Shown here piece after piece: positions 4,886 to 24,000 of a DNA stretch of 24,000 nucleotides (position 1 is its first letter; each line of letters begins with the position of its first letter). A program made the translations under genes and the position numbers. The notes below the pieces were generated by a model. That model did not search any database and had not been told where the DNA came from. It was given only the letters and a program-made list of their open reading frames with translations. This stretch comes from Halopseudomonas nanhaiensis. Its GTDB lineage: Bacteria; Pseudomonadota; Gammaproteobacteria; Pseudomonadales; Pseudomonadaceae. The stretch lies in contig NZ_CP073751.1 of NCBI RefSeq assembly GCF_020025155.1, forward strand, positions 2,521,167 through 2,545,166. The letters run 5' to 3'.

Positions 4886-6177
4886 TTGGCACCGCCGTCA
4901 TGCGCAATTCGCTGACGCACCTGAGCGGTCGCTCGCTGCGCCATGTCGCGGTTCTTGCTGGTGGAACCGCCACCGCGCAAATACTGACTCTGGCCGCAAC
5001 GCCGCTGATCACCCGAATGTTCGGGCCCGAGGCCTACGGCGCTGCCGGCAGCTTCCTCGCGCTGGTCTCCATGCTGGTGCCGGTGGCGGCGCTCTGTTAC
5101 CCGCTGGCGATCGTACTGCCGCGAGAGGATCGTGATGCGCAGGGGCTGAGCGTGCTTTCGCTGACCATTGCACTGGTCCTTGCTCTGTTGACACTCGCCT
5201 GCGTGTGGGTCGGCCAGCCTCTGCTCGAACGCACCGGAATGACGGCATCGTGGCTGCTCCTGCTGCCGGTATTCATGCTACTCGGGGCACTGCGCCAGGT
5301 ACTCGAGCAATGGGCTCATCGCCTTGGGCGCTTTCCCGTCTCCGCGCGCGTCTCGGTGGCTCAGTCCGTAACGGCCAATGGCGGAAAGATCGGCGGCGGT
5401 CTGGCGTTTCCTGTCGCGGGGACGCTGGTCGGCATGGCGCTGCTTGCAGAGGTGGTGGCGTGCGCGTGGTATCTCGCATCGCTGCGCCGGGTCGTCGTCG
5501 AAGCCTTCCAGCGCAGGCATGAGTCGACCACGGCTCTGCGCCAACTCGCCGCGACCCACTTCGATTTCCCGGTGTACCGCGCGCCGCAGATTCTGGTCAG
5601 CAGTCTCTCACTGGGTTTGCCCGTCCTGATACTCGGAACCTGGTTCGGCGCTGCTGCTGCAGGATTCTATGTCCTCGCCCGCGTGGTGGTAACGGCTCCG
5701 GTTACCTTGATCGGCAAGGCCATTACCGACGTGCTGACTCCTCGCCTAGCGGAGGCTTCACGCCGCGGAGAAGCGTTACGACCCCTGCTCCGCAAGGCCA
5801 TGCTGGGTCTCGCACCCACCGCCGCGTTACCGATGCTCTCGGTCATCATCGCGGGGCCGATACTGTTCGAATGGCTGTTCGGTGCCGAGTGGCGCCCGGC
5901 TGGCGAACAGGCCCGCTGGCTGGCGCTATGGTTCTACGTGACATTGATCACCATGCCCTGTCTCGCCGCCCTTCCAGTCCTGCGGATGCAGCGCTTCCAC
6001 CTGCAGCTCACCTGCTGGAGTGCGGCGGTACGCTTGTCGCTGCTGCTCGGGTGCGCCGCCCTCGGCGCCGATGTCATTACCTGCGTTGCCGTCTACGCCA
6101 TCTCAGGTGCGCTCATCAATCTGCTGCTGGCCGCCAGGGTGCTGCCGGCTTCGTCCGCCCCGGTCGCACGCGACTGA
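4882..6177 (+). CDS. Wzx-like oligosaccharide/polysaccharide flippase (MOP superfamily, Polysacc_synt-type)
   Basis: 431-aa polytopic membrane protein. The N-terminal region GGTATAQILTLAATPLITRMFGPEAYG matches the conserved PxLTRxxxPexFG signature of Wzx/RfbX-like lipopolysaccharide biosynthesis proteins. Its ATG overlaps the upstream stop (ATGA at 4882-4885), implying translational coupling. Confidence 0.75.
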   Translation: MIGTAVMRNSLTHLSGRSLRHVAVLAGGTATAQILTLAATPLITRMFGPEAYGAAGSFLALVSMLVPVAALCYPLAIVLPREDRDAQGLSVLSLTIALVLALLTLACVWVGQPLLERTGMTASWLLLLPVFMLLGALRQVLEQWAHRLGRFPVSARVSVAQSVTANGGKIGGGLAFPVAGTLVGMALLAEVVACAWYLASLRRVVVEAFQRRHESTTALRQLAATHFDFPVYRAPQILVSSLSLGLPVLILGTWFGAAAAGFYVLARVVVTAPVTLIGKAITDVLTPRLAEASRRGEALRPLLRKAMLGLAPTAALPMLSVIIAGPILFEWLFGAEWRPAGEQARWLALWFYVTLITMPCLAALPVLRMQRFHLQLTCWSAAVRLSLLLGCAALGADVITCVAVYAISGALINLLLAARVLPASSAPVARD

Positions 6178-6280
6178 CCGCTTCCCCTCTGCGCAATGCC
6201 GGCCGGTGAACTACCCTTGAGCGAAAGCAGCGTCCGGATCTGACGCCCGGATGCCGCCGTTCCTGAAAACCGCTGGCTAA

Positions 6281-7516
<1,236 letters not shown>

Positions 7517-7571: not shown

Positions 7572-8792
7572 TTACTGAGTGATGGACGCAACGTTCGCCG
7601 TTCCGGTCTGGGTCATCAGCGCCTCGTTGTAGTTGCCTGACTGACCAACTACCCCGACGTTGCGGGAGCCGCTCTGGTAGATGTCCGCCAGGTTGTCGCT
7701 GCCCCACTGGGTCGCTGTAGCCACGTTACGATCGCCGTACTGTTCAACGGCGGCGATGTTGTCCGAGCCCCACTGTCCGGTAGTGGCCTTGTTGGCAAAA
7801 CCGTCCTGGAAGATGGTGGCGTCGTTGCCGCTCTCAAGCTGCTCGGCAGTAGCGACGTTGAATTCACCAGTCTGCTCGATATCGACGGTGCCGTTATCAC
7901 CAAACTGGCTGGAGCGCGCCCAGTTGCCAGTGCCGGTCTGGTCGATCGAAGAATCGTTATCGTGGTCGCCCTGTGCGCTATACGCAATGTTCACACCGCC
8001 AGCCTGATCGATTTTCGAATCATTATCAGAACCCGACTGCGATGCGTCAGCGTAGTTGCCGCCGCCCACCTGATCGATATTGACGATACCGTCGGTCCCT
8101 GATTGCGATGAGGACGCGATATTGGTCACGCCGTCCTGCTCGATTTCCGCCAGGTTGCGGGAGTCGGTCTGGACCGCGCGCGCCTGGTTAAGCGTGCCGT
8201 CCTGATCAATCGTTGCAGTGCTGTGCGAGCCCGACTGATAGGTTGTGGCATCGTTACCCTGGCCTTTCTGATAAATGTTGGCTCTGCTGCTTTCGGTGTT
8301 CACCTGCTCGGCCAGCGCGTCGTTGTACCAGCCTTCCTGTTCCACCAGAACCTTGTTGTTCCAGCCGGACTGGTCGATTACAGCGTCGTTGTAATAGTCA
8401 TGCTGCACGACCACCGCATCGTTGTTCCATTTGGTCTGCCGGACCTTCAGATCATTGCCCAGGCCACGCTGCTCGACGTCGATATCGTGCCAGTCTCCGA
8501 TACTGGAGGTGTCGACCGAGTTGCCGCGGCCGGTCTGCAGCGAGTCCAGGGTATTACCCTTGCCTTCCTGATAGGCGTCGAGCTCCTGGCCACGACCGAA
8601 CTGGTCGACGTTGACCCGGTTGAGTTCACCTTCCTGAACGGTGCTGGAGTACTGATGCGCACCGGCCTGATAGATAGTCGCCTGCTGCTCGTCGCCTTCC
8701 TGAATAACGTAAGCCTCACTGTTGTTCGCGGCATGAGCCTGAGCGACACCAAGTGCAAGCAGAGCGGCAACCAGCGGTTTGATCTTGAACAT
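7572..8792 (-). CDS. csgA: Major curlin subunit CsgA homologue, greatly expanded (406 aa, about 17 curlin repeats)
   Basis: Signal peptide MFKIKPLVAALLALGVAQAHA. The rest is built of x-G-x-x-N-x-A-x-x-x-Q units (e.g. SGSRNVGVVGQ SGNYNEALMTQ TGTANVASITQ), the curlin repeat signature. It lies directly downstream of csgB in a csgDEFG-csgBA locus. Start chosen at ATG 8792 (AGGAGA 6 nt upstream); the ORF is open to 8822. Confidence 0.9.
   Translation of the reverse strand: MFKIKPLVAALLALGVAQAHAANNSEAYVIQEGDEQQATIYQAGAHQYSSTVQEGELNRVNVDQFGRGQELDAYQEGKGNTLDSLQTGRGNSVDTSSIGDWHDIDVEQRGLGNDLKVRQTKWNNDAVVVQHDYYNDAVIDQSGWNNKVLVEQEGWYNDALAEQVNTESSRANIYQKGQGNDATTYQSGSHSTATIDQDGTLNQARAVQTDSRNLAEIEQDGVTNIASSSQSGTDGIVNIDQVGGGNYADASQSGSDNDSKIDQAGGVNIAYSAQGDHDNDSSIDQTGTGNWARSSQFGDNGTVDIEQTGEFNVATAEQLESGNDATIFQDGFANKATTGQWGSDNIAAVEQYGDRNVATATQWGSDNLADIYQSGSRNVGVVGQSGNYNEALMTQTGTANVASITQ
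7575..8699 (-). repeat. In-frame tandem array of 34 curlin half-repeats (33-nt / 11-codon period) inside csgA
   Basis: Hand parse: residues 32-406 (375 aa) tile without gaps into 34 consecutive units, 33 of 11 aa and one of 12 aa, each ending in Q (one ends in S). The repeats are degenerate at nucleotide level. The clearest near-duplication is QWGSDNIAAVEQYGDRNVATATQWGSDNLADIYQ (about 66-nt period, around 7680-7800). Confidence 0.85.
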
Positions 8793-8836
8793 GTTGTTTC
8801 TCCTGATGAATCCTGGAATCAATAAGGAAGTGCACG

Positions 8837-9304
8837 TTAGCGATATTGGCGAACCAATATGTTTACAAGCTGGCCGGACTGCGCAATGGATGCACTTTTA
8901 TCCGATCCAGTCTGTTCGATAAGGGCATTGTTGAACGCCCCCTGTTGCTTGATCAGCGCTTCATTGTTCGAGCCCGACTGCAGGATGGCGGCCTCGTGAC
9001 CAAAGCCGTCCTGATCGATCAAGGCGGAATTGAGATAACCTGTTTGCAGAATGACAGCCTCAAGTTCTGCGCCCGTCTGCGCAATATGGGCGTCGAGCAA
9101 GTTACCGGACTGATGTATCGTGGCGAAGCTGTTTTCCGCGCCAGCGCCGCGTGACCCTGGAGCATTCAAGTCGGTTGACAACATCAACTCCGATGGAGCC
9201 AGATCGGCTGAGCCCTGAGCTTTGACAGGCGGCACAAAAAAGGTAAATAAAGTTGCCACCAGGCAAAAAAGAAGCGGCGCAAGCGAAGGTGTTGAGTAAT
9301 TCAT
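8837..9304 (-). CDS. csgB: Minor curlin subunit / nucleator CsgB homologue
   Basis: 155 aa with an N-terminal hydrophobic signal (LAPLLFCLVATLFTFFVPPVKA), followed by about 9 curlin half-repeats (SGNLLDAHIAQ TGAELEAVILQ TGYLNSALIDQ DGFGHEAAILQ SGSNNEALIKQ QGAFNNALIEQ TGSDKSASIAQ SGQLVNILVRQ). Basic C-terminal end (VRQYR). Position immediately 5' of csgA. Confidence 0.85.
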   Translation of the reverse strand: MNYSTPSLAPLLFCLVATLFTFFVPPVKAQGSADLAPSELMLSTDLNAPGSRGAGAENSFATIHQSGNLLDAHIAQTGAELEAVILQTGYLNSALIDQDGFGHEAAILQSGSNNEALIKQQGAFNNALIEQTGSDKSASIAQSGQLVNILVRQYR

Positions 9305-9414
9305 CTGCAGCGACTCGGCATTGAACGTCTTGATTCAATGGTCGATCAAAAGCGTCGCAAGGAACATCAATCAAAGGATTGAAAAATCATCTGAATAGGC
9401 GTTTTGTTTGGAAT
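9305..9414 (-). promoter_or_regulatory. Putative csgBA promoter/operator region (AT-rich, several TTGA/TCAA palindromes)
   Basis: About 110 bp of AT-rich non-coding sequence lies between the csgG terminator and the csgB ATG. Palindromes seen: TCAATC-AAAG-GATTGA at 9367-9382, ATTGAA-N8-TTCAAT at 9320-9339, and the near-palindrome TTGATTCAA at 9330-9338. No -10/-35 could be assigned confidently. Confidence 0.4.
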
Positions 9415-9436
9415 AAAAAAGCCGCTGTTAAGCGGC
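9415..9436 (-). terminator. Rho-independent terminator after csgG
   Basis: On the minus strand: GCCGCT-TAAC-AGCGGC followed by TTTTTT (plus-strand A-run 9415-9420, stem 9421-9436). It starts about 22 nt downstream of the csgG stop. Confidence 0.75.
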
Positions 9437-9458
9437 TTTGCTGAATGCCATTCCTTGA

Positions 9459-10253
9459 CTACTGGGCGGCGGCGACCTGCCAGAGCCGCCGCTCCACACC
9501 CTGATTGATCAGATGCGCAACAGCTGCTTCAATCGCAGAGAGTACGCACAGCTGCGCCGGCTCGTTGGTCGTGTAGCCCGCTTCGGCTTCGAGCAGTTCC
9601 TTGAACTCAATGAACTTGTATACGTTGGCACTGCGCCCGATCGAGTAGATGGTCTTGGTCGTCATCACGTTCGAGAGTACCTGTCCGCTACGCACATCCA
9701 CGGCACGCAGATTGACCGTCACCTGATCGACCCGGTACTCCTGAGACACTCCGATGCCGAGATAGCGCGCGCCCAATCCGCCGCTACGCACGTTCGTTTC
9801 ATACGCGACGATGGCACCTTCGAGGATGATGTTCGCCGCCAGCAGCGAGGGTAGATCTTCCTGAATGTTGGGCGCCACATCCGGCTTGTTCTGCGATGCG
9901 CGAATGATCTTCCGTTCGGTCAGAACGTTCTGCAGGCCCTCCCGTTCCAGCACCACGAACCAGCCGCTGGCCTGGAGCGCATCGACCAGCATGCTGCCTG
10001 CGCCCTGCGTGACCGCCGTGGAGAAGGAGCTTGCAGGGTTGGGTTTGTACTGCCCGGTCTGGTCACGAAAGCCGTAGACTGCGGCCACCAGCTTGCCCTT
10101 TGGACGCGGCAGGTCCAGCAGGTCCTGGTACGTCGAAGCACGCGGTGTCAGGGTCGGGCCTTTCTGCTCGGCCGGCATGGGTTCGCGGACGGCGCAGCCC
10201 TGAAGCAGCGCGACCAGACCCAGGGCAATCATCATCTTGTTCATGTTCAGCAT
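9459..10253 (-). CDS. csgG: Curli secretion channel lipoprotein CsgG
   Basis: Lipobox LLQGC. Strong colinear similarity to E. coli CsgG: PTLTPRASTYQDLLDLPRPKGK, VAAVYGFRDQTGQYKP.PAS.FSTAV.QGA..ML..AL, LEREGLQNVLTERKIIRA, GGLGARYLGIG, VNLR.V.V.SG..LS, GYT.NEP..LC..SAIE. The start could be one of several ATGs within the first 8 codons. Confidence 0.95.
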   Translation of the reverse strand: MLNMNKMMIALGLVALLQGCAVREPMPAEQKGPTLTPRASTYQDLLDLPRPKGKLVAAVYGFRDQTGQYKPNPASSFSTAVTQGAGSMLVDALQASGWFVVLEREGLQNVLTERKIIRASQNKPDVAPNIQEDLPSLLAANIILEGAIVAYETNVRSGGLGARYLGIGVSQEYRVDQVTVNLRAVDVRSGQVLSNVMTTKTIYSIGRSANVYKFIEFKELLEAEAGYTTNEPAQLCVLSAIEAAVAHLINQGVERRLWQVAAAQ

Positions 10254-10260
10254 CCTGTGC

Positions 10261-10680
10261 TCAGTTGATTGCGCCGTATCCGGTGACGCTTATTTCCGAA
10301 ACTTCACCGGTCAGCCTGTCGGTGATTTCGATGGTCAGATTCCCCGAGTCGTTGACGATATTGACGATGAAATCATCGGTTGTGAGCGAGCCGGTGTTGG
10401 TTTCCCCCAGGTCGCCAAGCAGATCGGACAGCAGCCGGGCTTCGAGCTGAGAAGTGAAGCGATCCAGCGCCGACTGCCCCGTGAGGGCCGAACGGTCGAT
10501 GGCGTCCGGGTCCTTGGTATCGTTCTGCGCCTGCGCGCTGCCCAGAAGCCAGGCACCATTGAGCGGGCTGCCGCCAAACGACGGATTGACCGGGGTATAC
10601 ACCAGCTCGGTCGCGGCAAGGGCGCCGCTGAACAGCGCACCCACTGCCATTGAGCACATACAGCTAACTCGGCTTTTCAT
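10261..10680 (-). CDS. csgF: Curli assembly component CsgF
   Basis: Signal peptide, then VNPSFGGSPLNGAWLLGSAQAQN..KDP (E. coli CsgF: [28 protein letters not shown]) and SALDRFTSQLEARLLSDLL...DDFIVNIVNDSGNLTIEITDRLTGE. The start overlaps the csgE stop (ATGA). Confidence 0.9.
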   Translation of the reverse strand: MKSRVSCMCSMAVGALFSGALAATELVYTPVNPSFGGSPLNGAWLLGSAQAQNDTKDPDAIDRSALTGQSALDRFTSQLEARLLSDLLGDLGETNTGSLTTDDFIVNIVNDSGNLTIEITDRLTGEVSEISVTGYGAIN

Positions 10681-11057
10681 AGCTCATCCTTGTCCAGGTC
10701 GATGTTGTCTTCGAACAGCGCTTCGATCTTGCGCCGATTGATCTCCTGCAGGACCAGGTCGGCCGCGCGATACGCCGTCTCGTCCAGCTGCGAGGAATTG
10801 GGTGACAGGAACTCGCGATAGACCGGCTGCCCTTCCAGCTCAACCCACAGCAATACGCCCCAGCGTGCCGACGGGCGCTCCTTGACCACCAGATTGGTTT
10901 CCAGCGGCACCAGCTCGTTGAGCCGCTCGCTGAATTTGCGATAGAAGTCGTTTCCGGAGCGGGTAATCGTGTGGTTGATCACCAGCCCGTTGATCTCTGC
11001 TTCGTCCGCCCAGGCCGCAGGCGCGAGCAGGAACCAGAGCAGGACCCAGCGCCTCAT
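10677..11057 (-). CDS. csgE: Curli secretion specificity factor CsgE
   Basis: MRRWVLLWFLLAPAAWA signal. Then INGLVINHTITRSGNDFYRKFSERL and VVKERPSARWGVLLWVEL (E. coli CsgE: [22 protein letters not shown] ... INERPSARWGSWITI). Start ATG 11057-11055 overlaps the csgD stop 11056-11054 (ATGA). The listed ORF extension to 11273 runs out of frame through csgD and is not credible. Confidence 0.9.
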   Translation of the reverse strand: MRRWVLLWFLLAPAAWADEAEINGLVINHTITRSGNDFYRKFSERLNELVPLETNLVVKERPSARWGVLLWVELEGQPVYREFLSPNSSQLDETAYRAADLVLQEINRRKIEALFEDNIDLDKDEL

Positions 11058-11707
11058 GCTTCCGTACCGTCGACGTGACGCAGAACCATCGAGGCCGCCT
11101 GAGCGCGGTTTGTCGCACCCAGTTTGTACAGCGCGTTGTGAACGTGACTCTTGACCGTATGGATGCTCAGGTTTATCTGGTCGGCAATGTCTACATTCGA
11201 GAGACCGTTGCCAGCCAGCCGGAGAATCTGCTTCTCCCGTTGGGTCAGCGATGAAAGCTTGTCGCTTGCACAAGCAAACAATCGATAACGTGCGATCAAT
11301 TTTTCCATCAATGCACGCGGCAGCCAGTCCCCGTCGGCCAACAGTATCTGTATGCCCGAGCGAAAGTTCTCACGCGACGTATTCTTGTAGAACACGCCTT
11401 TGATCCATGGAAAGTTTTGCAGTGCACTCAACGCCAATTCGGGAGTGGCATTGAAAAGTGCGACGGGCCTGTTTGGCGTGCTTTTCAAAAGGTCGAAACA
11501 CGCCAGTTCGGACAAACTACCGGCATCGATCAGCAGCAGTTTGAAGGAAGCGTCGACACTTGCGACGCTCGCGCACCGAACTAACCTCAACGACGCGTCG
11601 TCCGGAATCTGATGTTGCAGAAACGTTACGGATATATCGCTGTTGGTGGAGATCAGAACTAGCGCAGGTGTAACCAGCTGCGAGCTGGCCGAATTATTAT
11701 TCGACAT
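11054..11707 (-). CDS. csgD: CsgD-like LuxR/FixJ-family transcriptional regulator (atypical receiver + HTH)
   Basis: Colinear with E. coli CsgD: FKLLLIDAG (vs IILLDMME), LQNFPWIKGVFYKNTS (vs IENWPHINGVFYSMED), LTQREKQILRLAGNGLSNVDIADQINLSIHTVKSHVHNALYKLGATNRAQA (LuxR-type HTH). It is the first gene of the csgDEFG unit and noticeably more AT-rich than neighbouring genes. Confidence 0.85.
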   Translation of the reverse strand: MSNNNSASSQLVTPALVLISTNSDISVTFLQHQIPDDASLRLVRCASVASVDASFKLLLIDAGSLSELACFDLLKSTPNRPVALFNATPELALSALQNFPWIKGVFYKNTSRENFRSGIQILLADGDWLPRALMEKLIARYRLFACASDKLSSLTQREKQILRLAGNGLSNVDIADQINLSIHTVKSHVHNALYKLGATNRAQAASMVLRHVDGTEA

Positions 11708-17507: not shown

Positions 17508-20500
17508 GTGAGCACATCATCCGGTACGCGACGGGAAGTACCGCTGCGCAGGCGCCTGCTCGCCATTGCGCTCGCGGGTATCGTTCCGCTGGCCGGCATC
17601 GCAGGCGTGGGTCTCTGGCAGCTGGTAGAGCATGAGGAAGATCAGGTCCAGCTGCGTACGCTCGACGTCACTCGACTGGCAGCAACGGCCCTCGAGACAG
17701 AGGTCGGACGGTCGCTGGATGTGCTCGAGGCCCTATCGCTCTCGCCCCTGCTGCTTCAGGACGATCTCGACGACTTCAGCAGACTTGTCCAGCGGGTACT
17801 CCCGCTGGTCCCCAACTGGCACTCCCTTCTGATCGTCGACCCGCAGGGCAAGGTCATTCGCCGCGTTTCGACCACTGCGATCCAGCCTGACGGGGCCATC
17901 GCAGACTGGGACAGCTTCAACTCCGTGCTGAGCACGGGAATACGTCAGGCCGGAAGTATTTCAAAAGGCCCGAGGGGCACCTGGGGCATCCCGCTACGCG
18001 TTCCGGTGATGCGTGACGGAAAGATCCACTATGTGCTGACCGGAGTGCTCAAGCCCTCAGGGGTCCTCGCGGTACTCAATACGCGTGCCCTCCCGGAAGG
18101 TTCGGTGATGACGGTGCTTGACCGTAGCGGCAACCGCATCGCGCGCACTCGGCGGCACGAGGAGACGCTGGGCGAGCCCGCCTCCTCAACTCTGGTCGAG
18201 ATGCTTAGAGAGCGGCCGGAGCCGGAGGGTACGGGGCGCTCGGTCACGGTAGAGGGCGTCCCGTCGTACACTTCCTTCGTGCGCTTGCAGAGCGAAGCCG
18301 GCTGGATCGTGGCAACGGGAATGCCGACCTCGGTGGTAGAGAACTCCGCAGCGCGCGCTTTCAGTCTGTACGGGGGCGGGCTTACCCTGTCCCTGTTGCT
18401 GGCCATCGTCGCAGCGCTGATTGCCAGCCGTCGCATCAGCGAGCCGATGGACCAGCTGCGGCAGGCGGCGGTGGCCATCGGTGCCGGAGAGATGCCGACG
18501 GCACCGAGCACCGACATCGAGGAAATCAGCGATGTCGGCCGCGCCCTGGAGGCGTCCGGTCGGGCGCGGCTGGAGAGTGAAGCCGAGCGCGGCCGCACCA
18601 TGATTCGCCTCAAGGAGGCGCAGCAGGCTCTGACCCGTCAGGTAACGGGGCTCGAGCGTCTGCACGGGCTGAGCAACCGCCTCATCGAACTGCCCGACCT
18701 CTCCTCACAGCTTGCCGCGATCATCGACCTGCTCTGTGACCTGCAGAACACCCGGCACGCGCTGATCCTGTCACGCCAGCTCAAGGGAAGACCCCTGGTG
18801 GTGGCCTCGCACGGGTTCACGCAGGAGAACCTGGCGAAGCTGAATGCCTCGAGCTCGCTTCAGGGTGAACTCGGCGTACAGCTGCTGGAAGGAGGGGAAA
18901 TCATCGCCTCCGAGACACCCTGCGCGCTGGACGGATTCCATTCGCTGCACAGCACCCCGTTCAAGAGCAGCGATGGCTCGGTCTCTGGCGCCATCGTGCT
19001 GCTCCATACCGAGCCGCAGAAACAGGGGGCGCTGGACCGACACCTGGCCGATCTCTGTGCCGGCCTGGCTGCCGTTCTGATCGACCGCGCACGCATGCAG
19101 GCGCGGGCGGGTGAATCGCAACGCACACTGCAGGTGGCCCTGGAGTCCTCATCGGTACCCTTCTGCGTGCTCGCCCCGGAGCGGGACGAAGGTGGAGCCG
19201 TACAGGATTTCCGTTGGGAGTTCATCAACCCCCGGGGCGCACGCGTGCTGCAACGCTCTGTCGAGGAACTGATCGGCGCTCCGCTGGGTGAGGTGCTGAC
19301 CGGCTGGCAGAACCGTCAAACCTTTGCCGAGCTGCTCCGTGTGGTCGATCACGGCGAGTCGAGGGATGTGGAGCTGTCCGCTGCGGCGGATCGTGCCGAG
19401 CGCTGGGTTCACATCATTGCGACCCCCTTTGAAGGGCGGGTAGCGGTCTGGTTCGCCGACATCACCGAGCGGAAAAAGCAGGAAGCGCTGATGCGTCAGG
19501 CAGACCGGCGCAAGGACGAATTCCTCGCCACCCTCGCCCATGAGCTGCGCAACCCCCTGGCTCCGATTCGCATGGCAGCGAGCCTGTTCGGTTCACAGCG
19601 CGCTACCGATTCGCAGAAACAGCGCAGCCAGCAGATAATCGAACGGCAAGTGGCGCACATGGCGCTGCTGCTCGATGATCTGTTCGACATCTCGCGCATC
19701 ACCCTCGGCAAACTGGCCCTGCGCGTGCGACCGGTGGACCTTCGAGACGTGGCCCGAGCGGCGCTGGAAACCTCCAGGCCCAAACTCGAGCTCCGTCGCC
19801 ATGACGTGGCGCTGGATGTGCCGAACCAGCCGATACCGGTCGAGGCCGACCCCATGCGGCTGGAACAGGTGATCACCAACCTGCTGACCAACGCCGCCAA
19901 GTTCACGCCCGAAGGTGGTCGCGTTGCCCTGCGCGTGTACACCGACCAGCAACATGCGTTTGTCAGCGTGTCCGACAACGGCCTGGGCCTGGCTGCCGAA
20001 CAGATTCCGGCAATCTTCGAGAAGTTCGCCCAGGTCGCTACCCAGGGTGGCGTGAGCGCGGGACTGGGCATCGGGTTGGCGCTTGCACGCGAGCTTGCCC
20101 GATTGCATGGCGGTGAAGTCGAAGCGCACAGTGAAGGACTGCAGCGTGGTTCGGAGTTCGTGGTCAGATTACCGTGCGGGGCGGCGCTGGAGGTGTCCCG
20201 GCAGCCGGACCGGCCGGAGGCCACAACAGCCCTCAGACCGCGTCGGGTACTGGTGGCCGACGACAACCCCGACATTGCCGCCACGGTCGCGGACATTCTC
20301 AGGCTGGAAGGTCATGAGGTGATCATGGCGCATGACGGTAGCGCTGCGCTGGCGGCCTACGAAGAACACATCCCGGACGCCGCTGTACTCGACATCGGTA
20401 TGCCTGGCATGCGTGGCGACGACGTCGCCAGGGCGATCCGAGCGCGTGACGATGGCGGGCTACCGTTGCTCATTGCAATGACTGGCTGGGGCCAGCCTGC

Positions 20501-20633
20501 CGACAAGCAGAACGCGCTGAACGCCGGCTTCGACAAACATCTGACCAAACCGGTCGACGCTCGCACATTACTCGAACTGCTGCGCAGCGGTCCGCGGCTG
20601 AATCAGGCTGACGGACAGGCCAGCCCCTCCTGA
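17508..20633 (+). CDS. Hybrid sensor histidine kinase / response regulator with periplasmic sensor and multiple cytoplasmic sensory modules
   Basis: Two TM segments (LLAIALAGIVPLAGIAGVGLWQLV; GGGLTLSLLLAIVAALIASRRI) bracket a periplasmic domain of about 250 aa (Cache-like by size and position; inference). Next come a HAMP-like linker, GAF/PAS-like modules (FRWEFINPRGARVL...), the H-box DEFLATLAHELRNPLAPI, ATPase boxes (LTNAAKFTPEGG, DNGLGL, GLGIGLALAREL) and a C-terminal receiver (VLVADDNPDIA...AAVLDIGMPGMRG...KHLTKP). GTG start at 17508. Confidence 0.9.
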   Translation: MSTSSGTRREVPLRRRLLAIALAGIVPLAGIAGVGLWQLVEHEEDQVQLRTLDVTRLAATALETEVGRSLDVLEALSLSPLLLQDDLDDFSRLVQRVLPLVPNWHSLLIVDPQGKVIRRVSTTAIQPDGAIADWDSFNSVLSTGIRQAGSISKGPRGTWGIPLRVPVMRDGKIHYVLTGVLKPSGVLAVLNTRALPEGSVMTVLDRSGNRIARTRRHEETLGEPASSTLVEMLRERPEPEGTGRSVTVEGVPSYTSFVRLQSEAGWIVATGMPTSVVENSAARAFSLYGGGLTLSLLLAIVAALIASRRISEPMDQLRQAAVAIGAGEMPTAPSTDIEEISDVGRALEASGRARLESEAERGRTMIRLKEAQQALTRQVTGLERLHGLSNRLIELPDLSSQLAAIIDLLCDLQNTRHALILSRQLKGRPLVVASHGFTQENLAKLNASSSLQGELGVQLLEGGEIIASETPCALDGFHSLHSTPFKSSDGSVSGAIVLLHTEPQKQGALDRHLADLCAGLAAVLIDRARMQARAGESQRTLQVALESSSVPFCVLAPERDEGGAVQDFRWEFINPRGARVLQRSVEELIGAPLGEVLTGWQNRQTFAELLRVVDHGESRDVELSAAADRAERWVHIIATPFEGRVAVWFADITERKKQEALMRQADRRKDEFLATLAHELRNPLAPIRMAASLFGSQRATDSQKQRSQQIIERQVAHMALLLDDLFDISRITLGKLALRVRPVDLRDVARAALETSRPKLELRRHDVALDVPNQPIPVEADPMRLEQVITNLLTNAAKFTPEGGRVALRVYTDQQHAFVSVSDNGLGLAAEQIPAIFEKFAQVATQGGVSAGLGIGLALARELARLHGGEVEAHSEGLQRGSEFVVRLPCGAALEVSRQPDRPEATTALRPRRVLVADDNPDIAATVADILRLEGHEVIMAHDGSAALAAYEEHIPDAAVLDIGMPGMRGDDVARAIRARDDGGLPLLIAMTGWGQPADKQNALNAGFDKHLTKPVDARTLLELLRSGPRLNQADGQASPS

Positions 20634-20653: not shown

Positions 20654-21640
20654 TCAGGGATTGGCTGGTTCGTCGCGGAAGATTGATTCGGCAGGCTTGT
20701 TCTGCACGGTGAAGTCGGTATCGTTCTCGCCGCCGGCGTCCGGATCGGTATACCAGCACCATATGCCCATTCCTTCGATGCCGGGACGGTTGAGCACGCT
20801 CTTCCACTTGGTCAGGATGGTCTGCTGCAGCTGCAGATCCACCGGCAGCTCCTGCTCTTCAGGACTCTTCCAGGGCGCAGAGAGTACGTCGTCGGCTGAA
20901 CGCAGACCCACCTCGGCGACCCAGACCGGCTTCTGATGACGCTCGCCGAGCAACAACAGGCGATCCACCGACTCGCGCATCTGCGTATCGCGCTGCATCG
21001 GCTCGGAGGGGAGCGATGGATACAGGCTGCTGCCGATGACGTCGAACAAGCCCCAGTGCTGGAATTCTTCAGCGCGCTGCAGACTGTCGGCAACGTAGAG
21101 AACCTTGCCTGTATACACTTCGCGCACCGCAGCGACCAGCGCCGGCCAGTGCTCCGATTGCTCCAGATTGCGCAGCTCCGTGCCCAACACCATCGCCGGC
21201 ACCTTCTCCTGTTCGGCTACCCGTGCCAGCGGCAGTACCGCTTCGCGATAGGCCTGAAACCAGGCATCAGGGTCGGAGGGCTCAGCGTCACCGGCCCAAT
21301 GCTCGGGTATCCACAGATGCACCTTCAGCACCGGCACCAATCCAACCTGTTTCATCTGTTTCAGACCCGCCTGAACCATCTCGGGCGTGCTGTCGCTGCC
21401 ATTGACCGGATCATTGGACTCCGGCTCGGCTTGCCAGGCGAATGCCACCAGCAGCGCCCGATCGGCCCCGCTGTCAGCGAGCTGCTGCAACGAACGCTGG
21501 GTTTTCTCGCTGCCCCAACCGGCGTCGCCTGAAATTTTCACATTGGCACCGATCCAGAAATCCGGCTCCTGTGTGCAACCCGCAAGGGGCAACAACAACA
21601 GGGCCAACAACATCAAGGTTCTCTTTGCCATACCCGCCAT
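20654..21640 (-). CDS. Putative TIM-barrel (clan GH-A-like) glycoside hydrolase lipoprotein
   Basis: Lipoprotein signal MAGMAKRTLMLLALLLLPLAGC. Alternating strand/helix pattern with candidate catalytic glutamates in LGTELRN (acid/base position) and PVWVAEVGLRS (nucleophile position, reminiscent of the GH17-type xxE(T/S)GWPS motif). Family assignment is from memory and weak. Start at ATG 21640 (AAGGAG 4 nt upstream), overlapping the upstream gene by 28 nt. Confidence 0.5.
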   Translation of the reverse strand: MAGMAKRTLMLLALLLLPLAGCTQEPDFWIGANVKISGDAGWGSEKTQRSLQQLADSGADRALLVAFAWQAEPESNDPVNGSDSTPEMVQAGLKQMKQVGLVPVLKVHLWIPEHWAGDAEPSDPDAWFQAYREAVLPLARVAEQEKVPAMVLGTELRNLEQSEHWPALVAAVREVYTGKVLYVADSLQRAEEFQHWGLFDVIGSSLYPSLPSEPMQRDTQMRESVDRLLLLGERHQKPVWVAEVGLRSADDVLSAPWKSPEEQELPVDLQLQQTILTKWKSVLNRPGIEGMGIWCWYTDPDAGGENDTDFTVQNKPAESIFRDEPANP

Positions 21641-23130
21641 ACCTCTCCTTCGAACTCCAATTGATAACCCGGCATGCCGCTTTCCCATAGCTGCGGGAAC
21701 CGTTGCGAAATGCTGTCCTGAGCGCCTTCCAGCGACCCCGGCCGCGCCACCACCACCTGCGCCGGCATCCCGCCGCGGGTCGTCAGTGCGAGCTTGAAAC
21801 GATCGTCGAATGGCAGAATCAACTGCTGTGCATCACGCCGTGCTGCAATGACCCGGTATGCCGCCTGATCGTCGATCAGTGTGGGTAGTCGAGCTTCTGC
21901 GAGCCAGGATCCAAGGCGAATGTCTTCGTCTGAGCGCTGCACGATCGGCTCGCGGAATGCAGTGGCCCATTGCTGGACTTCCGGAAGCGGCTCTCTCAGC
22001 AGCACGAGCCAACCGAGCGGTATGGCAAGCAGCAAAAGCACTGCCGCAGGGATGCGCTGCCAGGGCAGCAGTGCCCGCAGCCCCAGAGCAGCGGGCACCA
22101 GCAGCAGCGCAAGGAAATCCAGCGCCTGCGTAGCGAACCAGACCAGCGTCGCCATGGCTCCGGCGCACACCAGCGTGCCGGCGACTGCCAGGGTACCCGC
22201 CCATCCGCGCTTGAGGCTCCAGAACGCCAGCAACAGGGAAGGAAAGGCCAGCGCACCGGTCACCACCAGCCACAGCAGGGGTTGAAACCATTGCCCCCCG
22301 AATTCGAGCAGCCAGGGCAGATAAGGCGCATCGGCGTAACCACCACGGAACGCCGAATCGGCCCGCGTGATGAACATCAGGCTGTCCCCGAAGAACAGCC
22401 AGTTCATGTACATCCAGCCGAGCAGTGCGAACACAAACGGCAAGTAGCAGATCAGGTAGAAGGCCAGCGGGGCGCGCTGGAGGATACCCTGCGGCGCGAC
22501 CAGCGCCAGCCACGGCAGCATCGCCAGAGCAATGAACGCCGCCCGCTCATCGATGAAGAACAGCAGACACAACCACCCGGCGAAGCGCAGATAGACCCGC
22601 GGTTCAGGATCGCCACCAAAGCTGCGTAGCGTGCGAAACAGGCCGTAGACTGCCAACGTGCCAAGGCCCAGGTTGTGTCCGGACGTGGATACCCACAGGA
22701 AGAACGGATGACAGACTAGCAACAGCGTCCATATCCAGGCCCAGACCGCGCCATGGTCGCGGGCCATGTCGCGCCAGGTAAGCGAGGCCAGCAAGCCCAT
22801 GGCGGCGATATCAAGCAGGTACGGCACCAGCACACCCGGCACGCCGGGCACCCAGCTGAACAGCAGGCCGAGGTACACCGAAGCCTGCGTGGAAAGAAAG
22901 CCTGCAAACTCCAGGCGCAGGCCCGCAGCATCGCGCATGACCAGCAGCTTGGCATAGCGCGCCAGGGCATCGCTACTCATGTAGCCATTGATGAGCAGGT
23001 GGTAGCAGAGCACACCCAGCGCCAGCAGCACCAGCACGAGTACCGGAGCGCTGCGCGCACGGCGCCTGCGTCTGGATCTACTCGCGGAGCGCGGCCTTGC
23101 GCTCTGCCGGTGCGTACTTGCTAATGCCAT
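21613..23130 (-). CDS. Polytopic inner-membrane protein of unknown family (about 11-12 TM segments plus a C-terminal soluble domain of about 125 aa)
   Basis: 505-aa ORF. It is the only long ORF in this interval without the Arg/Pro/Ala-rich low-complexity bias of the GC shadow ORFs. The Arg-rich N-terminus (RQSARPRSASRSRRRRRARS) is followed by many hydrophobic helices (VLVLVLLALGVLCYHLL, WAWIWTLLLVCHPFFLW, YLICYLPFVFALLGWMYMNWLFF ...) and a hydrophilic tail. I recognise no family motif. The start overlaps the GT2 stop by 53 nt, so the true start may be further downstream. Confidence 0.6.
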   Translation of the reverse strand: MALASTHRQSARPRSASRSRRRRRARSAPVLVLVLLALGVLCYHLLINGYMSSDALARYAKLLVMRDAAGLRLEFAGFLSTQASVYLGLLFSWVPGVPGVLVPYLLDIAAMGLLASLTWRDMARDHGAVWAWIWTLLLVCHPFFLWVSTSGHNLGLGTLAVYGLFRTLRSFGGDPEPRVYLRFAGWLCLLFFIDERAAFIALAMLPWLALVAPQGILQRAPLAFYLICYLPFVFALLGWMYMNWLFFGDSLMFITRADSAFRGGYADAPYLPWLLEFGGQWFQPLLWLVVTGALAFPSLLLAFWSLKRGWAGTLAVAGTLVCAGAMATLVWFATQALDFLALLLVPAALGLRALLPWQRIPAAVLLLLAIPLGWLVLLREPLPEVQQWATAFREPIVQRSDEDIRLGSWLAEARLPTLIDDQAAYRVIAARRDAQQLILPFDDRFKLALTTRGGMPAQVVVARPGSLEGAQDSISQRFPQLWESGMPGYQLEFEGEVWRVWQREP

Positions 23131-24000
23131 GATTGGTCTTTTCCCAGTAGAACGGTTTGCTGATCAGCTGCCACAGGCCCTTGTAGGCAGCGAAGGATTG
23201 CAGCAACCAGTACAGCGGTACGGTGAGCGCGTACGGTGCGAGATTGAAGTAGTTGCGCTTGAAGCCGGCGACCATGGTCATGTAGATGAAAAACCCGTTG
23301 GCCAATAGCAGGTTGAGCAGGCTGAGGTACACCAGCGCCGGCGGGAACAGAAAGTCGAACGCCCGCGTGCCTGCGGCCAGCCAGAGCCCATAGATGAGCC
23401 ATAACAGGGGTGCGGCCAATGCCGTGAGCACGCCACCACCAATGAAGAACTGAAAGCCCCAGAAGCCCCGGAACCCGGTTGACTGATACAGGTGCACCGG
23501 ATCGCGCATGTGCACCAGCCAGGTCTGCATATAGCCCTTGAACCAGCGCGAGCGCTGCCGGATCCAGTTGGGAACGCTGACATTCGCTTCTTCGAAGGTG
23601 GTCGAATTGACCACGCTGACCCGGTAGCCTTGCTGAACCAGGCGCACGCCGAGGTCGGCGTCTTCGGTCACGTTGTACGGATCCCAGGCATACACGCTGC
23701 GCAGGGCTTCGATCCGAAAGTGGTTGGACGTCCCACCCAGCGGAATCGGGATGCGCAGGTATTCGAGCGCCGGAAGATAGAAGTCGAACCAGAGCGTGTA
23801 CTCCAGCGTGAACATGCGCGTCAGCCAGTTCTCGTTGGCGTTGTAGTAATTCAGCCGCGCCTGCACGCAGACCACCTCCGGCGCGGACTTGGCAAAGGCG
23901 GCCACCACACGTTTGAGCTGCTCCGGTTCGGGCTTGTCTTCGGCATCGAAGATGGTGACAAACTGTCCTCTGGCAAAGCGCAACGCATAGTTGCAGGCCT
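23078..24000 (-). CDS. Processive family-2 glycosyltransferase (cellulose/chitin/PNAG-synthase-like), N-terminus outside the window
   Basis: The frame stays open to the window edge (..ACNYALRFARGQFVTIFDAEDKP). Signature set: DAED (DxD), VTEDADLGVRL (TED/ED) and RQRSRWFKGY (Q-x-x-R-W), followed by 4 or more C-terminal TM helices and FYWEKTNHG. The listed start at 23983 is an internal TTG. Confidence 0.85.
   Translation of the reverse strand, partial: ACNYALRFARGQFVTIFDAEDKPEPEQLKRVVAAFAKSAPEVVCVQARLNYYNANENWLTRMFTLEYTLWFDFYLPALEYLRIPIPLGGTSNHFRIEALRSVYAWDPYNVTEDADLGVRLVQQGYRVSVVNSTTFEEANVSVPNWIRQRSRWFKGYMQTWLVHMRDPVHLYQSTGFRGFWGFQFFIGGGVLTALAAPLLWLIYGLWLAAGTRAFDFLFPPALVYLSLLNLLLANGFFIYMTMVAGFKRNYFNLAPYALTVPLYWLLQSFAAYKGLWQLISKPFYWEKTNHGISKYAPAERKAALRE

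What the first reader, a model, noticed from the sequence alone, without database searches (positions are those of the whole stretch)
20654..24000. Uncharacterised three-gene synthase-type exopolysaccharide module: processive GT2, unknown 505-aa membrane protein, TIM-barrel hydrolase lipoprotein
**Seen in sequence:** three minus-strand genes are packed with overlapping ends (53-nt and 28-nt overlaps with the chosen starts), implying one translationally coupled unit.
- The first has the full D,D,D,QxxRW signature of processive beta-glycan synthases plus its own C-terminal TM bundle.
- The last is a lipoprotein with two candidate catalytic glutamates, the arrangement of clan GH-A hydrolases.
- The middle gene matches nothing I recognise.

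**Established knowledge:** synthase-dependent systems (Bcs, Pga, Alg, Pel) pair a GT2 with a co-polymerase or c-di-GMP receptor, a periplasmic hydrolase or modifying enzyme, and an outer-membrane porin.

**Inference:** this trio does not match the gene sets of bcs, pga, alg, pel, psl, crd or ndvB as I know them. No PilZ, TPR/porin, deacetylase or MFP partner is visible within the window. It may therefore encode an undescribed glycan synthesis, export or remodelling pathway. One possibility is a split relative of NdvB-type GH17+GT2 beta-glucan systems.
Basis: partly seen in the sequence, partly recalled or inferred. Interest (0 to 1): 0.7.

Follow-up and report, generated by a model that had tools for sequence, protein, structure and literature searches.

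The report
Xag-type biofilm polysaccharide operon (xagBCD)
The three overlapping genes are the xagB, xagC and xagD genes of a biofilm-sugar-polymer operon already known genetically from Xanthomonas and from iron-oxidising bacteria; the product and mechanism are still unknown, and the "mystery" middle protein is predicted here to have the fold of a membrane glycosyltransferase.

Summary
Three real minus-strand genes overlap by 53 nt and, most likely, 19 nt:
- **GT2** (23078 to beyond 24000): a BcsA-like glycosyltransferase, cut by the window end.
- **Membrane protein** (21613-23130): 505 aa, no Pfam or NCBIfam match.
- **Lipoprotein** (20654-21631): GH113-type, with both catalytic glutamates.

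The module is not undescribed. It is orthologous in sequence and gene order to xagB-xagC-xagD of the Xanthomonas xagABCD biofilm operon (80/51/57 % identity). It also matches the "xag-like" sfz/sfb cluster of iron oxidisers.

In the two closest relatives, a BcsB-like gene and a XagA-like outer-membrane gene sit upstream. XagB there carries an N-terminal MshEN (c-di-GMP receptor) domain.

New here: an AlphaFold model of XagC (pTM 0.81) matches only GT-C-fold glycosyltransferases in the PDB. The canonical GT-C acidic residues are not conserved across its wider family, so catalysis is unproven. XagC-like genes sit next to BcsB-like and MshEN-GT2 genes even in cyanobacteria.

Most likely function: a c-di-GMP-gated, synthase-dependent exopolysaccharide system, possibly making a mannose-type beta-glycan. 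It is a new member of a known but biochemically uncharacterised kind.

The parts
23078..24000 (-). xagB, 3' two-thirds (306 codons plus stop). BcsA-like family-2 glycosyltransferase with a C-terminal membrane bundle; the N-terminus is cut off by the window end.
   Evidence: It is 96 % identical to the full 637-aa XagB of L002 and 80 % to Xanthomonas XagB. The full orthologue aligns to BcsA over residues 258-563.
23936..23947 (-). DAED (the DxD-type motif of the GT-A domain)
   Evidence: The motif assignment follows BcsA (established knowledge).
23660..23668 (-). TED motif (catalytic base of BcsA-type synthases)
23543..23557 (-). QRSRW (QxxRW acceptor-binding motif)
23078..23130 (-). 53-nt overlap between the xagB stop and the xagC start
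   Evidence: The same 53-nt overlap occurs in L005, L011, L013 and L015; it is 59 nt in L008 and 8 nt in L010.
21613..23130 (-). xagC: 505-aa membrane protein with about 11 TM helices, N-terminus in the cytoplasm and C-terminal domain in the periplasm; predicted GT-C fold.
   Evidence: AF2 model with pLDDT 80.5 and pTM 0.81. The top 26 Foldseek PDB hits are all GT-C enzymes: DPY19, STT3, ArnT, AftA, PglB, ALG9, AftB, Emb. No Pfam hit. The family has 637 clusters at 50 % identity.
22897..22977 (-). First periplasmic loop of XagC, carrying D54, D67 and E74 (candidate GT-C catalytic or metal-binding acids)
   Evidence: E74 is invariant and D67 is at least 90 % conserved among 15 close homologues. 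Conservation is only partial in 119 distant representatives.
21616..21948 (-). C-terminal periplasmic alpha/beta domain of XagC. It holds the best-conserved polar residues of the whole family: D420, D472, W498 and R499.
   Evidence: The domain-only model was of low confidence and had no significant fold match.
21613..21631 (-). 19-nt overlap between the xagC stop and the preferred xagD start (ATG 21631, with GGAGAGG upstream)
   Evidence: A 19-nt overlap is conserved in L005, L006, L011, L013 and L015.
20654..21631 (-). xagD: 325-aa GH113-type periplasmic lipoprotein (the longest ORF extends to 21688)
   Evidence: Pfam GH113 at 8.9e-31. The only PDB relatives are GH113 beta-1,4-mannanases, best 2.9e-15. 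It is 57-62 % identical to XagD of L005, L011 and L013. NCBI names the Xanthomonas orthologues 'glycoside hydrolase family 113'.
21575..21586 (-). Lipobox L-A-G-C of XagD
   Evidence: A Cys is present only in the window and Xanthomonas sequences; the other orthologues have plain signal peptides.
21170..21184 (-). GTELR: candidate acid/base glutamate of XagD (E152 counted from ATG 21631)
   Evidence: Aligns with GCEMV of the GH113 structure 5ylh. Invariant in 7 orthologues.
20906..20920 (-). VAEVG: candidate nucleophile glutamate of XagD (E240)
   Evidence: Aligns with FVEAG of 5ylh. The deposited variant 5yli has FVAAG at this position. Invariant in 7 orthologues.

Best explanation
The trio is xagB (3' part), xagC and xagD of a Xag-type exopolysaccharide operon in a Halopseudomonas-like gammaproteobacterium. 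In this lineage the full operon is probably five genes: bcsB-like, xagA-like, xagB, xagC, xagD. The first two genes and the 5' third of xagB lie just beyond position 24000.

**Proposed mechanism (inferred)**
1. c-di-GMP binds the N-terminal MshEN domain of XagB and releases the enzyme.
2. XagB is a BcsA-like inverting GT2. It polymerises a beta-linked glycan and threads it through its own membrane bundle. A BcsB-like, membrane-anchored periplasmic partner assists.
3. XagC is a GT-C-fold membrane protein, translationally coupled to XagB, that meets the chain on the periplasmic face. It either adds sugars from a polyprenyl-phosphate donor or hands the chain on. A purely structural role is also possible.
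4. XagD is a retaining GH113-type beta-glycanase tethered to a membrane. It trims or releases the polymer, as BcsZ or PslG do in their systems.
5. The XagA-like barrel takes the polymer across the outer membrane.

The polymer is most likely beta-linked and may be mannose-configured (mannan, glucomannan or ManNAc type).

**Shown:** gene identity, order, domain content, predicted folds and conservation. **Inferred:** every biochemical step and the polymer.
For: **Orthology and synteny**
- The window proteins are 80, 51 and 57 % identical to the MshEN-GT2, 504-aa and GH113 genes of a Xanthomonas four-gene cluster, in the same order and with the same 53-nt and 19-nt overlaps.
- A 62 %-identical homologue of the middle protein is named 'membrane protein XagC' by JGI.
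- The literature describes xagABCD as a four-gene operon with xagB as the glycosyltransferase. It is needed for biofilm and repressed by DSF/RpfG signalling.
- The sfz/sfb and 'xag-like' cassettes of iron oxidisers are BcsB-like + XagB + XagC + XagD, with matching gene lengths.

**Context beyond the window**
- The nearest relatives are L015 (82 % nt identity) and the Halopseudomonas MAG L001/L002 (77-83 %). Both carry a 653-672 aa BcsB-like gene and a 304-325 aa XagA-like gene upstream.
- The BcsB-like protein is homologous to Pfam-BcsB-positive proteins of L008 and L010 at 1e-45 to 1e-55. The XagA-like protein is 55 % identical to the Xanthomonas 322-aa gene product and ends in WWRF.
- Full-length XagB matches the c-di-GMP-binding MshEN domains of PilF and MshE over residues 24-124, and BcsA over 258-563. 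It has the tandem 24-residue RLG...Q motifs with a 5-residue spacer.

**XagC.** GT-C fold.

**XagD.** GH113, with both catalytic Glu aligned and invariant.

**Coupling.** A XagC-like gene lies next to BcsB and MshEN-GT2 genes even in Chroococcidiopsis.

**Mannose hint**
- GH113 members are described as exclusively mannanases (PMC7710045).
Against: - The N-terminus of XagB, the BcsB-like gene and the XagA-like gene are not in the window. Their presence here is extrapolated from relatives at 77-83 % nt identity.
- I did not compare directly with the X. campestris 8004 sequences used by Tao et al. 2010; that paper is not held.
- The GT-C assignment rests on a predicted structure with moderate TM-scores (0.41-0.54). 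Sequence support is negligible: PMT_2 at E 0.0087 in 1 of 15, DUF2142 at 1.6e-3 in 2 of 80, and nothing against PDB profiles.
- The canonical acidic residue after TM1 is present in only 77-88 of 119 family representatives, and D194 in 64 of 119. XagC may therefore not be a catalytic glycosyltransferase.
- No polyprenyl-phosphate-sugar synthase or flippase gene is in the operon.
- The Arg of the first MshEN motif is missing in several orthologues, including Xanthomonas.
Confidence: 0.75

Rival explanations
1. This is a three-component periplasmic glycosylation system, not a polymer synthase. The GT2 makes a polyprenyl-phosphate (or other lipid)-linked sugar on the cytoplasmic face, and the GT-C protein XagC transfers it to a periplasmic acceptor such as LPS, glucans or a protein. 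This would work as GtrB/GtrC, ArnC/ArnT or CsbB/YfhO do.
For: XagC has a GT-C fold, and GT2 + GT-C pairs are the standard layout of such systems (PMC13390465). XagB-like genes have been auto-annotated as monoglucosyl-diacylglycerol synthase, a lipid-glycosylating GT2. No other donor-making enzyme is in the operon.
Against: - XagB has TED and QxxRW motifs and a multi-helix C-terminal bundle, and its best solved relative is BcsA. It does not have the two-helix GtrB/DPM1 layout.
- It is consistently paired with a BcsB-like protein, with a glycanase and, in most loci examined, with a candidate outer-membrane barrel. These are features of polymer export.
- Xanthomonas xag mutants lose extracellular polysaccharide and biofilm.
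- No GtrA-type flippase gene is present.
Confidence: 0.1
2. It is simply a variant cellulose (beta-1,4-glucan) synthase operon: XagB plus a BcsB-like protein make cellulose or a modified cellulose, and XagD is its endoglucanase.
For: BcsA is the closest solved GT2 and CelA is the best NCBIfam hit. A BcsB-like partner is present. Clan GH-A contains many glucanases.
Against: - All NCBIfam scores are far below the equivalog cut-offs (41.6 against 699 bits).
- There is no PilZ domain, no GH8 BcsZ and no TPR-BcsC.
- X. tesorieronis has a complete separate bcs operon about 1.5 kb downstream of xag.
- The iron oxidisers likewise keep separate bcsABZC genes.
- XagD's only solved relatives are mannanases.
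Confidence: 0.12
3. One reading: a wholly undescribed pathway, possibly a split NdvB-type (GH17 + GT2) beta-1,3-glucan system.
For: The trio matches none of the bcs, pga, alg, pel, psl, crd or ndvB gene sets. XagC has no sequence family.
Against: The hydrolase is GH113, not GH17. The gene set has been named and studied genetically as xagABCD since 2010, and as sfz/sfb since 2015 and 2021.
Confidence: 0.03

Closest known systems
xagABCD operon of Xanthomonas campestris / X. oryzae pv. oryzicola (Tao, Swarup & Zhang 2010; Zhang et al. 2013, PMC3609779)
   Same: Same three genes in the same order, with the same 53-nt and 19-nt overlaps. Identity to a Xanthomonas locus is 80, 51 and 57 %. A XagA-like gene lies upstream in the nearest relatives.
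   Different: The host is a Halopseudomonas-like pseudomonad, not a xanthomonad. This lineage adds a BcsB-like gene upstream of xagA, which the Xanthomonas locus examined lacks. Regulation by DSF/Clp is not expected here.
sfz1-4 / sfb1-4 ('xag-like') stalk-formation candidate cluster of Zeta- and Betaproteobacterial iron oxidisers (PMC4643136, PMC8250860)
   Same: The cassette is BcsB-like + XagB-like (T2SS-E N-terminal/MshEN domain + GT2) + XagC-like of unknown function + XagD-like hydrolase. This architecture is seen here in L008 and L010.
   Different: Those clusters lack xagA, and identity to them is low (33-37 % for XagC in the L008/L010 type). The stalk function is itself only a correlation. 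The authors read the N-terminal domain as secretion-ATPase-like and the hydrolase as GH10, whereas here they are MshEN and GH113.
Bacterial cellulose synthase BcsA-BcsB-BcsZ-BcsC
   Same: A processive-type GT2 with TED and QxxRW motifs and its own membrane channel. It has a BcsB-like single-anchor periplasmic partner, a dedicated periplasmic glycanase, c-di-GMP control and an outer-membrane exporter.
   Different: The receptor is MshEN rather than PilZ. The glycanase is GH113 rather than GH8. The exporter is a small barrel of about 300 aa rather than TPR-BcsC. There is an extra GT-C-fold protein with no counterpart in Bcs.
NfrB/NfrA N4-glycan-receptor system of E. coli (PMC8669472, PMC8669469)
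   Same: A BcsA-like GT2 controlled through an MshEN-type c-di-GMP domain, plus an outer-membrane partner, making a still-undefined surface glycan. Its synthesis depends on ManNAc, a mannose-configured sugar.
   Different: In NfrB the MshEN domain is C-terminal; in XagB it is N-terminal. The Nfr system has no BcsB-like, GT-C-like or GH113 component. The NCBIfam match to the NfrB-type model is weak (1.9e-5).
GT-C glycosyltransferases (ArnT, PMT, DPY19, STT3/PglB, AftA/Emb) and the GtrB/GtrC-type three-component glycosylation systems
   Same: The predicted fold of XagC: cytoplasmic N-terminus, a long first periplasmic loop with short helices and acidic residues, and a C-terminal periplasmic domain.
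   Different: There is no significant sequence similarity. The canonical catalytic acids are not conserved across the XagC family. XagC is partnered with a BcsA-like synthase rather than a GtrB-like lipid-sugar synthase. No donor is known.
GH113 beta-1,4-mannanases (AaManA 3civ/4cd6, AxMan113A 5ylh, BaMan113A 7dv7)
   Same: The Pfam GH113 match is well above cut-off, and both catalytic glutamates align.
   Different: XagD is a lipoprotein embedded in a biosynthetic operon, not a secreted plant-mannan degrader. Homology to the solved enzymes is distant (E-values 2.9e-15 to 1.4e-11), and its substrate is unknown.

Membership tests
Xag (xagABCD) exopolysaccharide operon | Gene order GT2 (xagB), then an approximately 500-aa membrane protein (xagC), then an approximately 325-aa glycosidase-like protein (xagD), tightly coupled | tested here: met
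   Same order and same overlaps as the Xanthomonas locus L005, with 80, 51 and 57 % identity.
Xag (xagABCD) exopolysaccharide operon | xagA immediately upstream of xagB | not testable with these tools
   The window ends inside xagB. The nearest relatives L002 and L015 have a 304-325 aa gene there, 55 % identical to the Xanthomonas 322-aa gene product.
Xag (xagABCD) exopolysaccharide operon | Identity with the experimentally studied X. campestris 8004 and X. oryzae BLS256 genes | tested here: inconclusive
   The link is indirect. It rests on the JGI name 'XagC' on a 62 % homologue, on descriptions in the literature and on a Xanthomonas locus of another species. The original sequences and paper are not available.
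Xag (xagABCD) exopolysaccharide operon | Required for matrix polysaccharide and biofilm | not testable with these tools
   Shown only in Xanthomonas.
BcsA-type processive GT2 synthase | GT-A domain with DxD, TED and QxxRW motifs, followed by a membrane helix bundle | tested here: met
   DAED, TED, QRSRW and C-terminal hydrophobic helices are in the window. Pfam gives Glyco_trans_2_3. The BcsA alignment covers residues 258-563 of the orthologue. The first Asp motif lies outside the window.
Bcs cellulose synthase operon | PilZ domain on the synthase, GH8 BcsZ, TPR-porin BcsC | tested here: not met
   No PilZ domain was found. The hydrolase is GH113. No BcsC was found in related loci. CelA equivalog score is 41.6 against 699 bits.
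MshEN c-di-GMP receptor domain | Two 24-residue RLGxx(L/V/I)(L/V/I)xxG...Q motifs separated by 5 residues | not testable with these tools
   The N-terminus is outside the window. In L002 and L015 orthologues (96 % identical to the window protein for L002; 82 % nt identity for L015) both motifs and a KRWRS spacer are present, and residues 24-124 match PilF and MshE MshEN domains. The second motif is degenerate (G to R, Q to H). Binding was not tested.
GH113 (clan GH-A retaining beta-mannanases) | Sequence membership above the curated threshold | tested here: met
   PF22612 scores 107.8 bits against a 27-bit cut-off. The only PDB relatives are GH113 enzymes.
GH113 (clan GH-A retaining beta-mannanases) | Acid/base and nucleophile glutamates | tested here: met
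   E152 (GTELR) and E240 (VAEVG) align with the GH113 catalytic positions, and the 5yli variant is E-to-A at the second. Both are invariant in 7 orthologues.
GH113 (clan GH-A retaining beta-mannanases) | Beta-1,4-mannanase activity | not testable with these tools
   Needs enzyme assays.
GT-C fold glycosyltransferases | Multi-pass membrane fold with a long first extracytoplasmic loop and a C-terminal extracytoplasmic domain | tested here: met
   Prediction only. The model has pTM 0.81. The top 26 PDB matches are all GT-C, with probability 0.97-1.00, and the next hits drop to 0.35 or lower.
GT-C fold glycosyltransferases | Conserved catalytic acidic residue at the start of the first extracytoplasmic loop | tested here: inconclusive
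   D54, D67 and E74 are conserved among close homologues. An acid at positions 53/54 is present in only 77 of 119 family representatives, or 88 of 119 within +/-1-2 positions.
GT-C fold glycosyltransferases | Use of a polyprenyl-phosphate-linked sugar donor | not testable with these tools
   No donor-synthesis gene is in the operon. Biochemistry is needed.
NdvB-type GH17+GT2 beta-glucan system | GH17 transglycosylase domain or gene | tested here: not met
   No GH17 hit was found. The hydrolase is GH113, with a weak GH53 hit.

The most novel reading that the evidence does not exclude
Xag/Sfz-type systems may form a separate class of c-di-GMP-gated, synthase-dependent polysaccharide machines. 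In this class a BcsA/BcsB-like core is coupled to a GT-C-fold membrane protein that modifies, branches or transfers the nascent chain on the periplasmic side. No characterised synthase-dependent pathway (cellulose, PNAG, alginate, Pel, curdlan, MLG, NGR) does this. The product would be a bacterial beta-mannan-type polymer.
Probability: 0.3. Interest if true: 0.65.

Novelty: new member of a known kind. Interest (0 to 1): 0.4.

Why it matters
**For the scan.** The locus should be labelled xagBCD, not "undescribed".

**For the field.**
- The Xag polymer is still chemically undefined after 15 years. The same cassette is the leading candidate for the organic matrix of iron-oxidiser stalks.
- Three readings make the system directly testable: XagC/Sfz3 as a GT-C-fold protein, the XagB N-terminus as an MshEN c-di-GMP receptor, and XagD as GH113 rather than GH10.
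- The cassette's presence in pseudomonads, xanthomonads, iron oxidisers and (in part) cyanobacteria shows it is a widespread matrix system, not a Xanthomonas speciality.

Tried and rejected
- **Exact look-up of the 505-aa protein:** nothing on record.
- **Sequence-level link of XagC to GT-C:**
  - Profiles of 15 and 119 sequences found no relevant match in PDB sequences.
  - Pfam scans gave only stray weak hits: PMT_2 in 1 of 15 and DUF2142 in 2 of 80.
- **Second homologue search with the alignment:** no new proteins.
- **C-terminal domain of XagC alone:** mediocre model (pLDDT 69.7) with no significant fold match.
- **Literature:**
  - Tao et al. 2010 is not held.
  - No paper links GT-C with BcsB-like systems.
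  - The NfrB paper does not mention Xag.
- **Rejected hypotheses:**
  - NdvB/GH17 relative: no GH17.
  - Membership of Bcs: no PilZ, GH8 or BcsC.
  - Hybrid histidine kinase as part of the module: it is convergent, and it is conserved only in the sister MAG, not in other loci.
  - ORF starts 21688 and 21640 for xagD, in favour of 21631.

Full report
**1. The observation**

The ORF scan shows three long minus-strand ORFs in 20654-24000.

- **First gene.** It has no start in the window. Read in frame from 23998, it gives 306 residues ending at the stop at 23078.
  - Pfam: Glyco_trans_2_3 (1.2e-24), Glyco_tranf_2_3 and Glycos_transf_2.
  - NCBIfam: best hit is the cellulose synthase CelA domain model, far below its cut-off (41.6 against 699 bits).
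  - Motifs: DAED, TED and QRSRW lie at 23936-23947, 23660-23668 and 23543-23557, followed by hydrophobic helices.
  - The first UDP-binding Asp motif of BcsA-type enzymes ('ESDD' in the orthologue) falls outside the window.
- **Second gene (21613-23130).** It encodes 505 aa with no Pfam or NCBIfam hit. Its ATG at 23130 is the only start codon upstream of the first transmembrane helix. That fixes a 53-nt overlap with the GT2 stop.
- **Third gene.**
  - It is a GH113-family protein (PF22612, 8.9e-31).
  - ATG 21631 has GGAGAGG upstream. It yields MAKRTLMLLALLLLPLAGC with a lipobox.
  - This start reproduces the 19-nt overlap and the 321-326 aa length called in five other loci.

**2. What it is**

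A homologue search with the middle protein returned only 14 clusters. One was named 'membrane protein XagC' by JGI (62 % identity), and the Xanthomonas hypothetical proteins were about 51 % identical.

*Literature.*
- xagABCD is a four-gene operon of Xanthomonas campestris, X. oryzae pv. oryzicola and X. citri, and xagB is its glycosyltransferase.
- Deleting the cluster lowers extracellular polysaccharide and abolishes biofilm.
- The operon is strongly up-regulated in rpfF, rpfC and rpfG mutants (PMC3609779; PMC3633832; PMC3826837).

*Xanthomonas locus.* In the X. tesorieronis chromosome the gene order is as follows:
- a 322-aa gene with no Pfam hit;
- a 629-aa gene with MshEN + GT2;
- a 504-aa gene, overlapping the previous one by 53 nt;
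- a 325-aa GH113 gene, overlapping by 19 nt.

The window proteins are 80, 51 and 57 % identical to the last three. NCBI names the last one 'glycoside hydrolase family 113'.

*Iron oxidisers.* The same cassette, with a BcsB-like gene in place of xagA, was reported twice. Kato et al. 2015 called it 'xag-like' (PMC4643136). Koeksoy et al. 2021 called it sfz1-4/sfb1-4, the candidate stalk-matrix cluster (PMC8250860). There Sfz3, the XagC equivalent, is 'unknown' and Sfz4 is read as GH10.

**3. What lies beyond the window**

*Nearest sequences.*
- An uncultured Halopseudomonas MAG matches at 77-83 % nt identity. The match includes the convergent histidine-kinase gene downstream of xagD.
- A metagenome contig, L015, matches at 82 % nt identity.

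*Gene order upstream.*
- Both relatives carry a 653-672 aa gene and then a 304-325 aa gene upstream of the GT2.
- The large protein has a signal peptide and a C-terminal membrane anchor.
- The large protein is homologous (1e-45 to 1e-55) to proteins of L008 and L010 that hit Pfam BcsB. Its L013 orthologue hits BcsB weakly.
- The small protein is 55 % identical to the Xanthomonas 322-aa gene product. It ends in WWRF and weakly matches an outer-membrane barrel family.

*Full-length XagB.*
- XagB of L002 is 96 % identical to the window part.
- It matches the c-di-GMP-binding MshEN domains of PilF and MshE over residues 24-124.
- It matches BcsA over residues 258-563.
- The two 24-residue RLG...Q motifs, separated by five residues, define the MshEN ligand site (PMC5013675). 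Both are present in L002, L015, L008 and L010. They are partly degenerate elsewhere.

The lineage most likely has a five-gene operon: bcsB-like, xagA-like, xagB, xagC, xagD.

**4. The middle protein**

*Predicted fold.*
- An AlphaFold2 model from 15 homologues reached pLDDT 80.5 and pTM 0.81.
- The first 26 Foldseek hits against the PDB are all GT-C-fold glycosyltransferases: DPY19, STT3/OST, ArnT, AftA, PglB, ALG9, AftB, EmbB and AglB.
- Those hits have probability 0.97-1.00 and TM-scores of 0.33-0.54 (most 0.40 or higher). Of the later hits, two further GT-C enzymes (Pmt4, EmbB) still score 0.89-1.00; every unrelated transporter or channel has probability 0.35 or lower.
- The topology fits GT-C. 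A basic N-terminal tail lies inside. TM1 is followed by a 50-residue periplasmic loop with short helices and acids D54, D67 and E74. There are about 11 helices in all, then a 110-residue periplasmic alpha/beta domain.
- UniProt auto-names two Xanthomonas orthologues 'Glycosyltransferase RgtA/B/C/D-like domain-containing protein'.

*Caveats.*
- Sequence-level support is negligible.
- The exhaustive profile search found 637 clusters at 50 % identity, 131 of them at E 1e-30 or better.
- In 119 of those representatives, an acid at positions 53/54 is present in 77, and D194 in 64.
- The best-conserved polar residues are D420, D472, W498 and R499, all in the C-terminal domain.
- That domain, modelled alone, gave no fold match.

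The fold assignment is therefore reasonably firm. Catalytic glycosyltransferase activity is open.

**5. Conservation of the association**

| Architecture | Loci |
|---|---|
| BcsB-like, XagA-like, MshEN-GT2, XagC, GH113 | L011, L013, L015, L002 + L001 |
| BcsB-like, MshEN-GT2, XagC, GH113 | L008 |
| BcsB-like, MshEN-GT2, XagC (no GH113) | L010 |
| XagA, MshEN-GT2, XagC, GH113 | Xanthomonas |

In Chroococcidiopsis and a Leptolyngbyaceae MAG, a XagC-like gene (24-26 % identity) is present. In Chroococcidiopsis it lies next to a divergent BcsB + MshEN-GT2 pair, with no GH113 gene.

The invariant core in these loci is thus the MshEN-GT2 plus XagC. BcsB-like, XagA and GH113 are frequent but dispensable partners.

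**6. The hydrolase**

- XagD's only solved relatives are the GH113 beta-1,4-mannanases, with E-values from 2.9e-15 to 1.4e-11.
- GTELR aligns with GCEMV, and VAEVG with FVEAG. The deposited 5yli variant carries FVAAG at the second site, marking it as a catalytic glutamate.
- Both glutamates are invariant in seven XagD orthologues.
- The lipobox cysteine is present only in the window and Xanthomonas sequences. The others have ordinary signal peptides, so periplasmic location is conserved but lipid anchoring is not.

**7. Mechanism**

The best-supported model is a synthase-dependent pathway.

- XagB is controlled by c-di-GMP through MshEN. The precedent is NfrB, where an MshEN-like domain binds c-di-GMP and is needed for function (PMC8669472).
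- XagB polymerises and translocates a beta-linked glycan with a BcsB-like partner.
- XagC acts on the chain in the periplasm.
- XagD trims or releases it.
- XagA exports it.

*Mannose hint.*
- GH113 is described as exclusively endo-mannanases. A GT2 + GH113 + WecB cluster in C. difficile was predicted to make a ManNAc-rich polymer (PMC7710045).
- In Xanthomonas, the endomannanase gene manA (biofilm dispersal) is down-regulated and the xag genes up-regulated in a clp mutant.

I put about 0.9 on the identity as xagBCD. I put about 0.75 on a synthase-dependent exopolysaccharide function. I put about 0.5 on XagC being catalytically active. I put about 0.35-0.4 on a mannose-configured polymer.

**8. 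Rivals**

- **GtrB/GtrC-style lipid-sugar glycosylation system.** This would explain the GT-C protein. It fits poorly with the BcsA-type motifs, the BcsB-like partner, the glycanase and the Xanthomonas phenotype.
- **Cellulose variant.** Weakened by the absence of PilZ, GH8 and BcsC, and by separate bcs operons in Xanthomonas and in the iron oxidisers.
- **NdvB-like system.** Excluded by the absence of GH17.

**9. Verdict**

This is a new member (a Halopseudomonas-like host, in a five-gene form) of a known but biochemically uncharacterised kind. Its claim of an undescribed pathway was not.

The useful additions are the GT-C fold of XagC/Sfz3, the MshEN reading of the XagB N-terminus, the GH113 assignment with intact catalytic residues, and the breadth of the XagC-synthase association.

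Noticed in passing
window 7572-11707 (minus strand): A curli (functional amyloid) operon lies in the lower-GC stretch (GC 0.53-0.56). It comprises a 416-aa CsgA-like protein with 9 curlin repeats, a 155-aa CsgB-like protein, CsgG, CsgE and a LuxR/CsgD-type regulator. The window therefore carries two biofilm-matrix systems about 9 kb apart.
   Followed up: partly
window 3872-7516 (plus strand): A TupA-like ATP-grasp gene, a Wzx-type polysaccharide flippase-family gene and a LamB-family porin lie in a row. They may be part of another surface-glycan locus.
   Followed up: no
window 17508-20633 (plus strand): A 1041-aa hybrid sensor kinase/response regulator (weak dCache, PAS, HisKA, HATPase, REC) converges on xagD, with only 20 nt between the two stop codons. 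It is also next to xagD in the sister MAG but not in L011 or L013, so it is probably not part of the module.
   Followed up: partly
L005 13996-21515 (Xanthomonas tesorieronis): A complete bcs cellulose operon (BcsD-like, BcsA with PilZ, BcsB, GH8, BcsC) starts about 1.5 kb downstream of xagD. A 281-aa soluble-type GT2 lies 170 nt upstream of xagA.
   Followed up: no
L010 6094-13644: In the one locus where XagC is not followed by a GH113 gene, the adjacent minus-strand cluster encodes a YaiO-family outer-membrane barrel and a UDP-GlcNAc 2-epimerase (WecB-type, makes UDP-ManNAc). This is a possible hint at a ManNAc-type precursor.
   Followed up: no
L008 5969-8059: This XagB orthologue (696 aa) carries an extra N-terminal copy of the MshEN-type RxG...Q motif pair.
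   Followed up: no
L004 4316-12737 and L003 532-3931 (cyanobacterial MAGs): The XagC-like 501-aa gene is followed by two conserved genes of 362 and about 272 aa with no Pfam hit. In L004 it lies divergent from a BcsB + MshEN-GT2 pair. This looks like a cyanobacterial variant of the module with different accessory proteins.
   Followed up: partly
window 23078-23130 and equivalents in L005, L011, L013, L015: The 53-nt xagB/xagC overlap has the same length in four other loci, and both reading frames are conserved at the protein level. The cause was not examined; translational coupling or a regulatory constraint are possibilities.
   Followed up: partly
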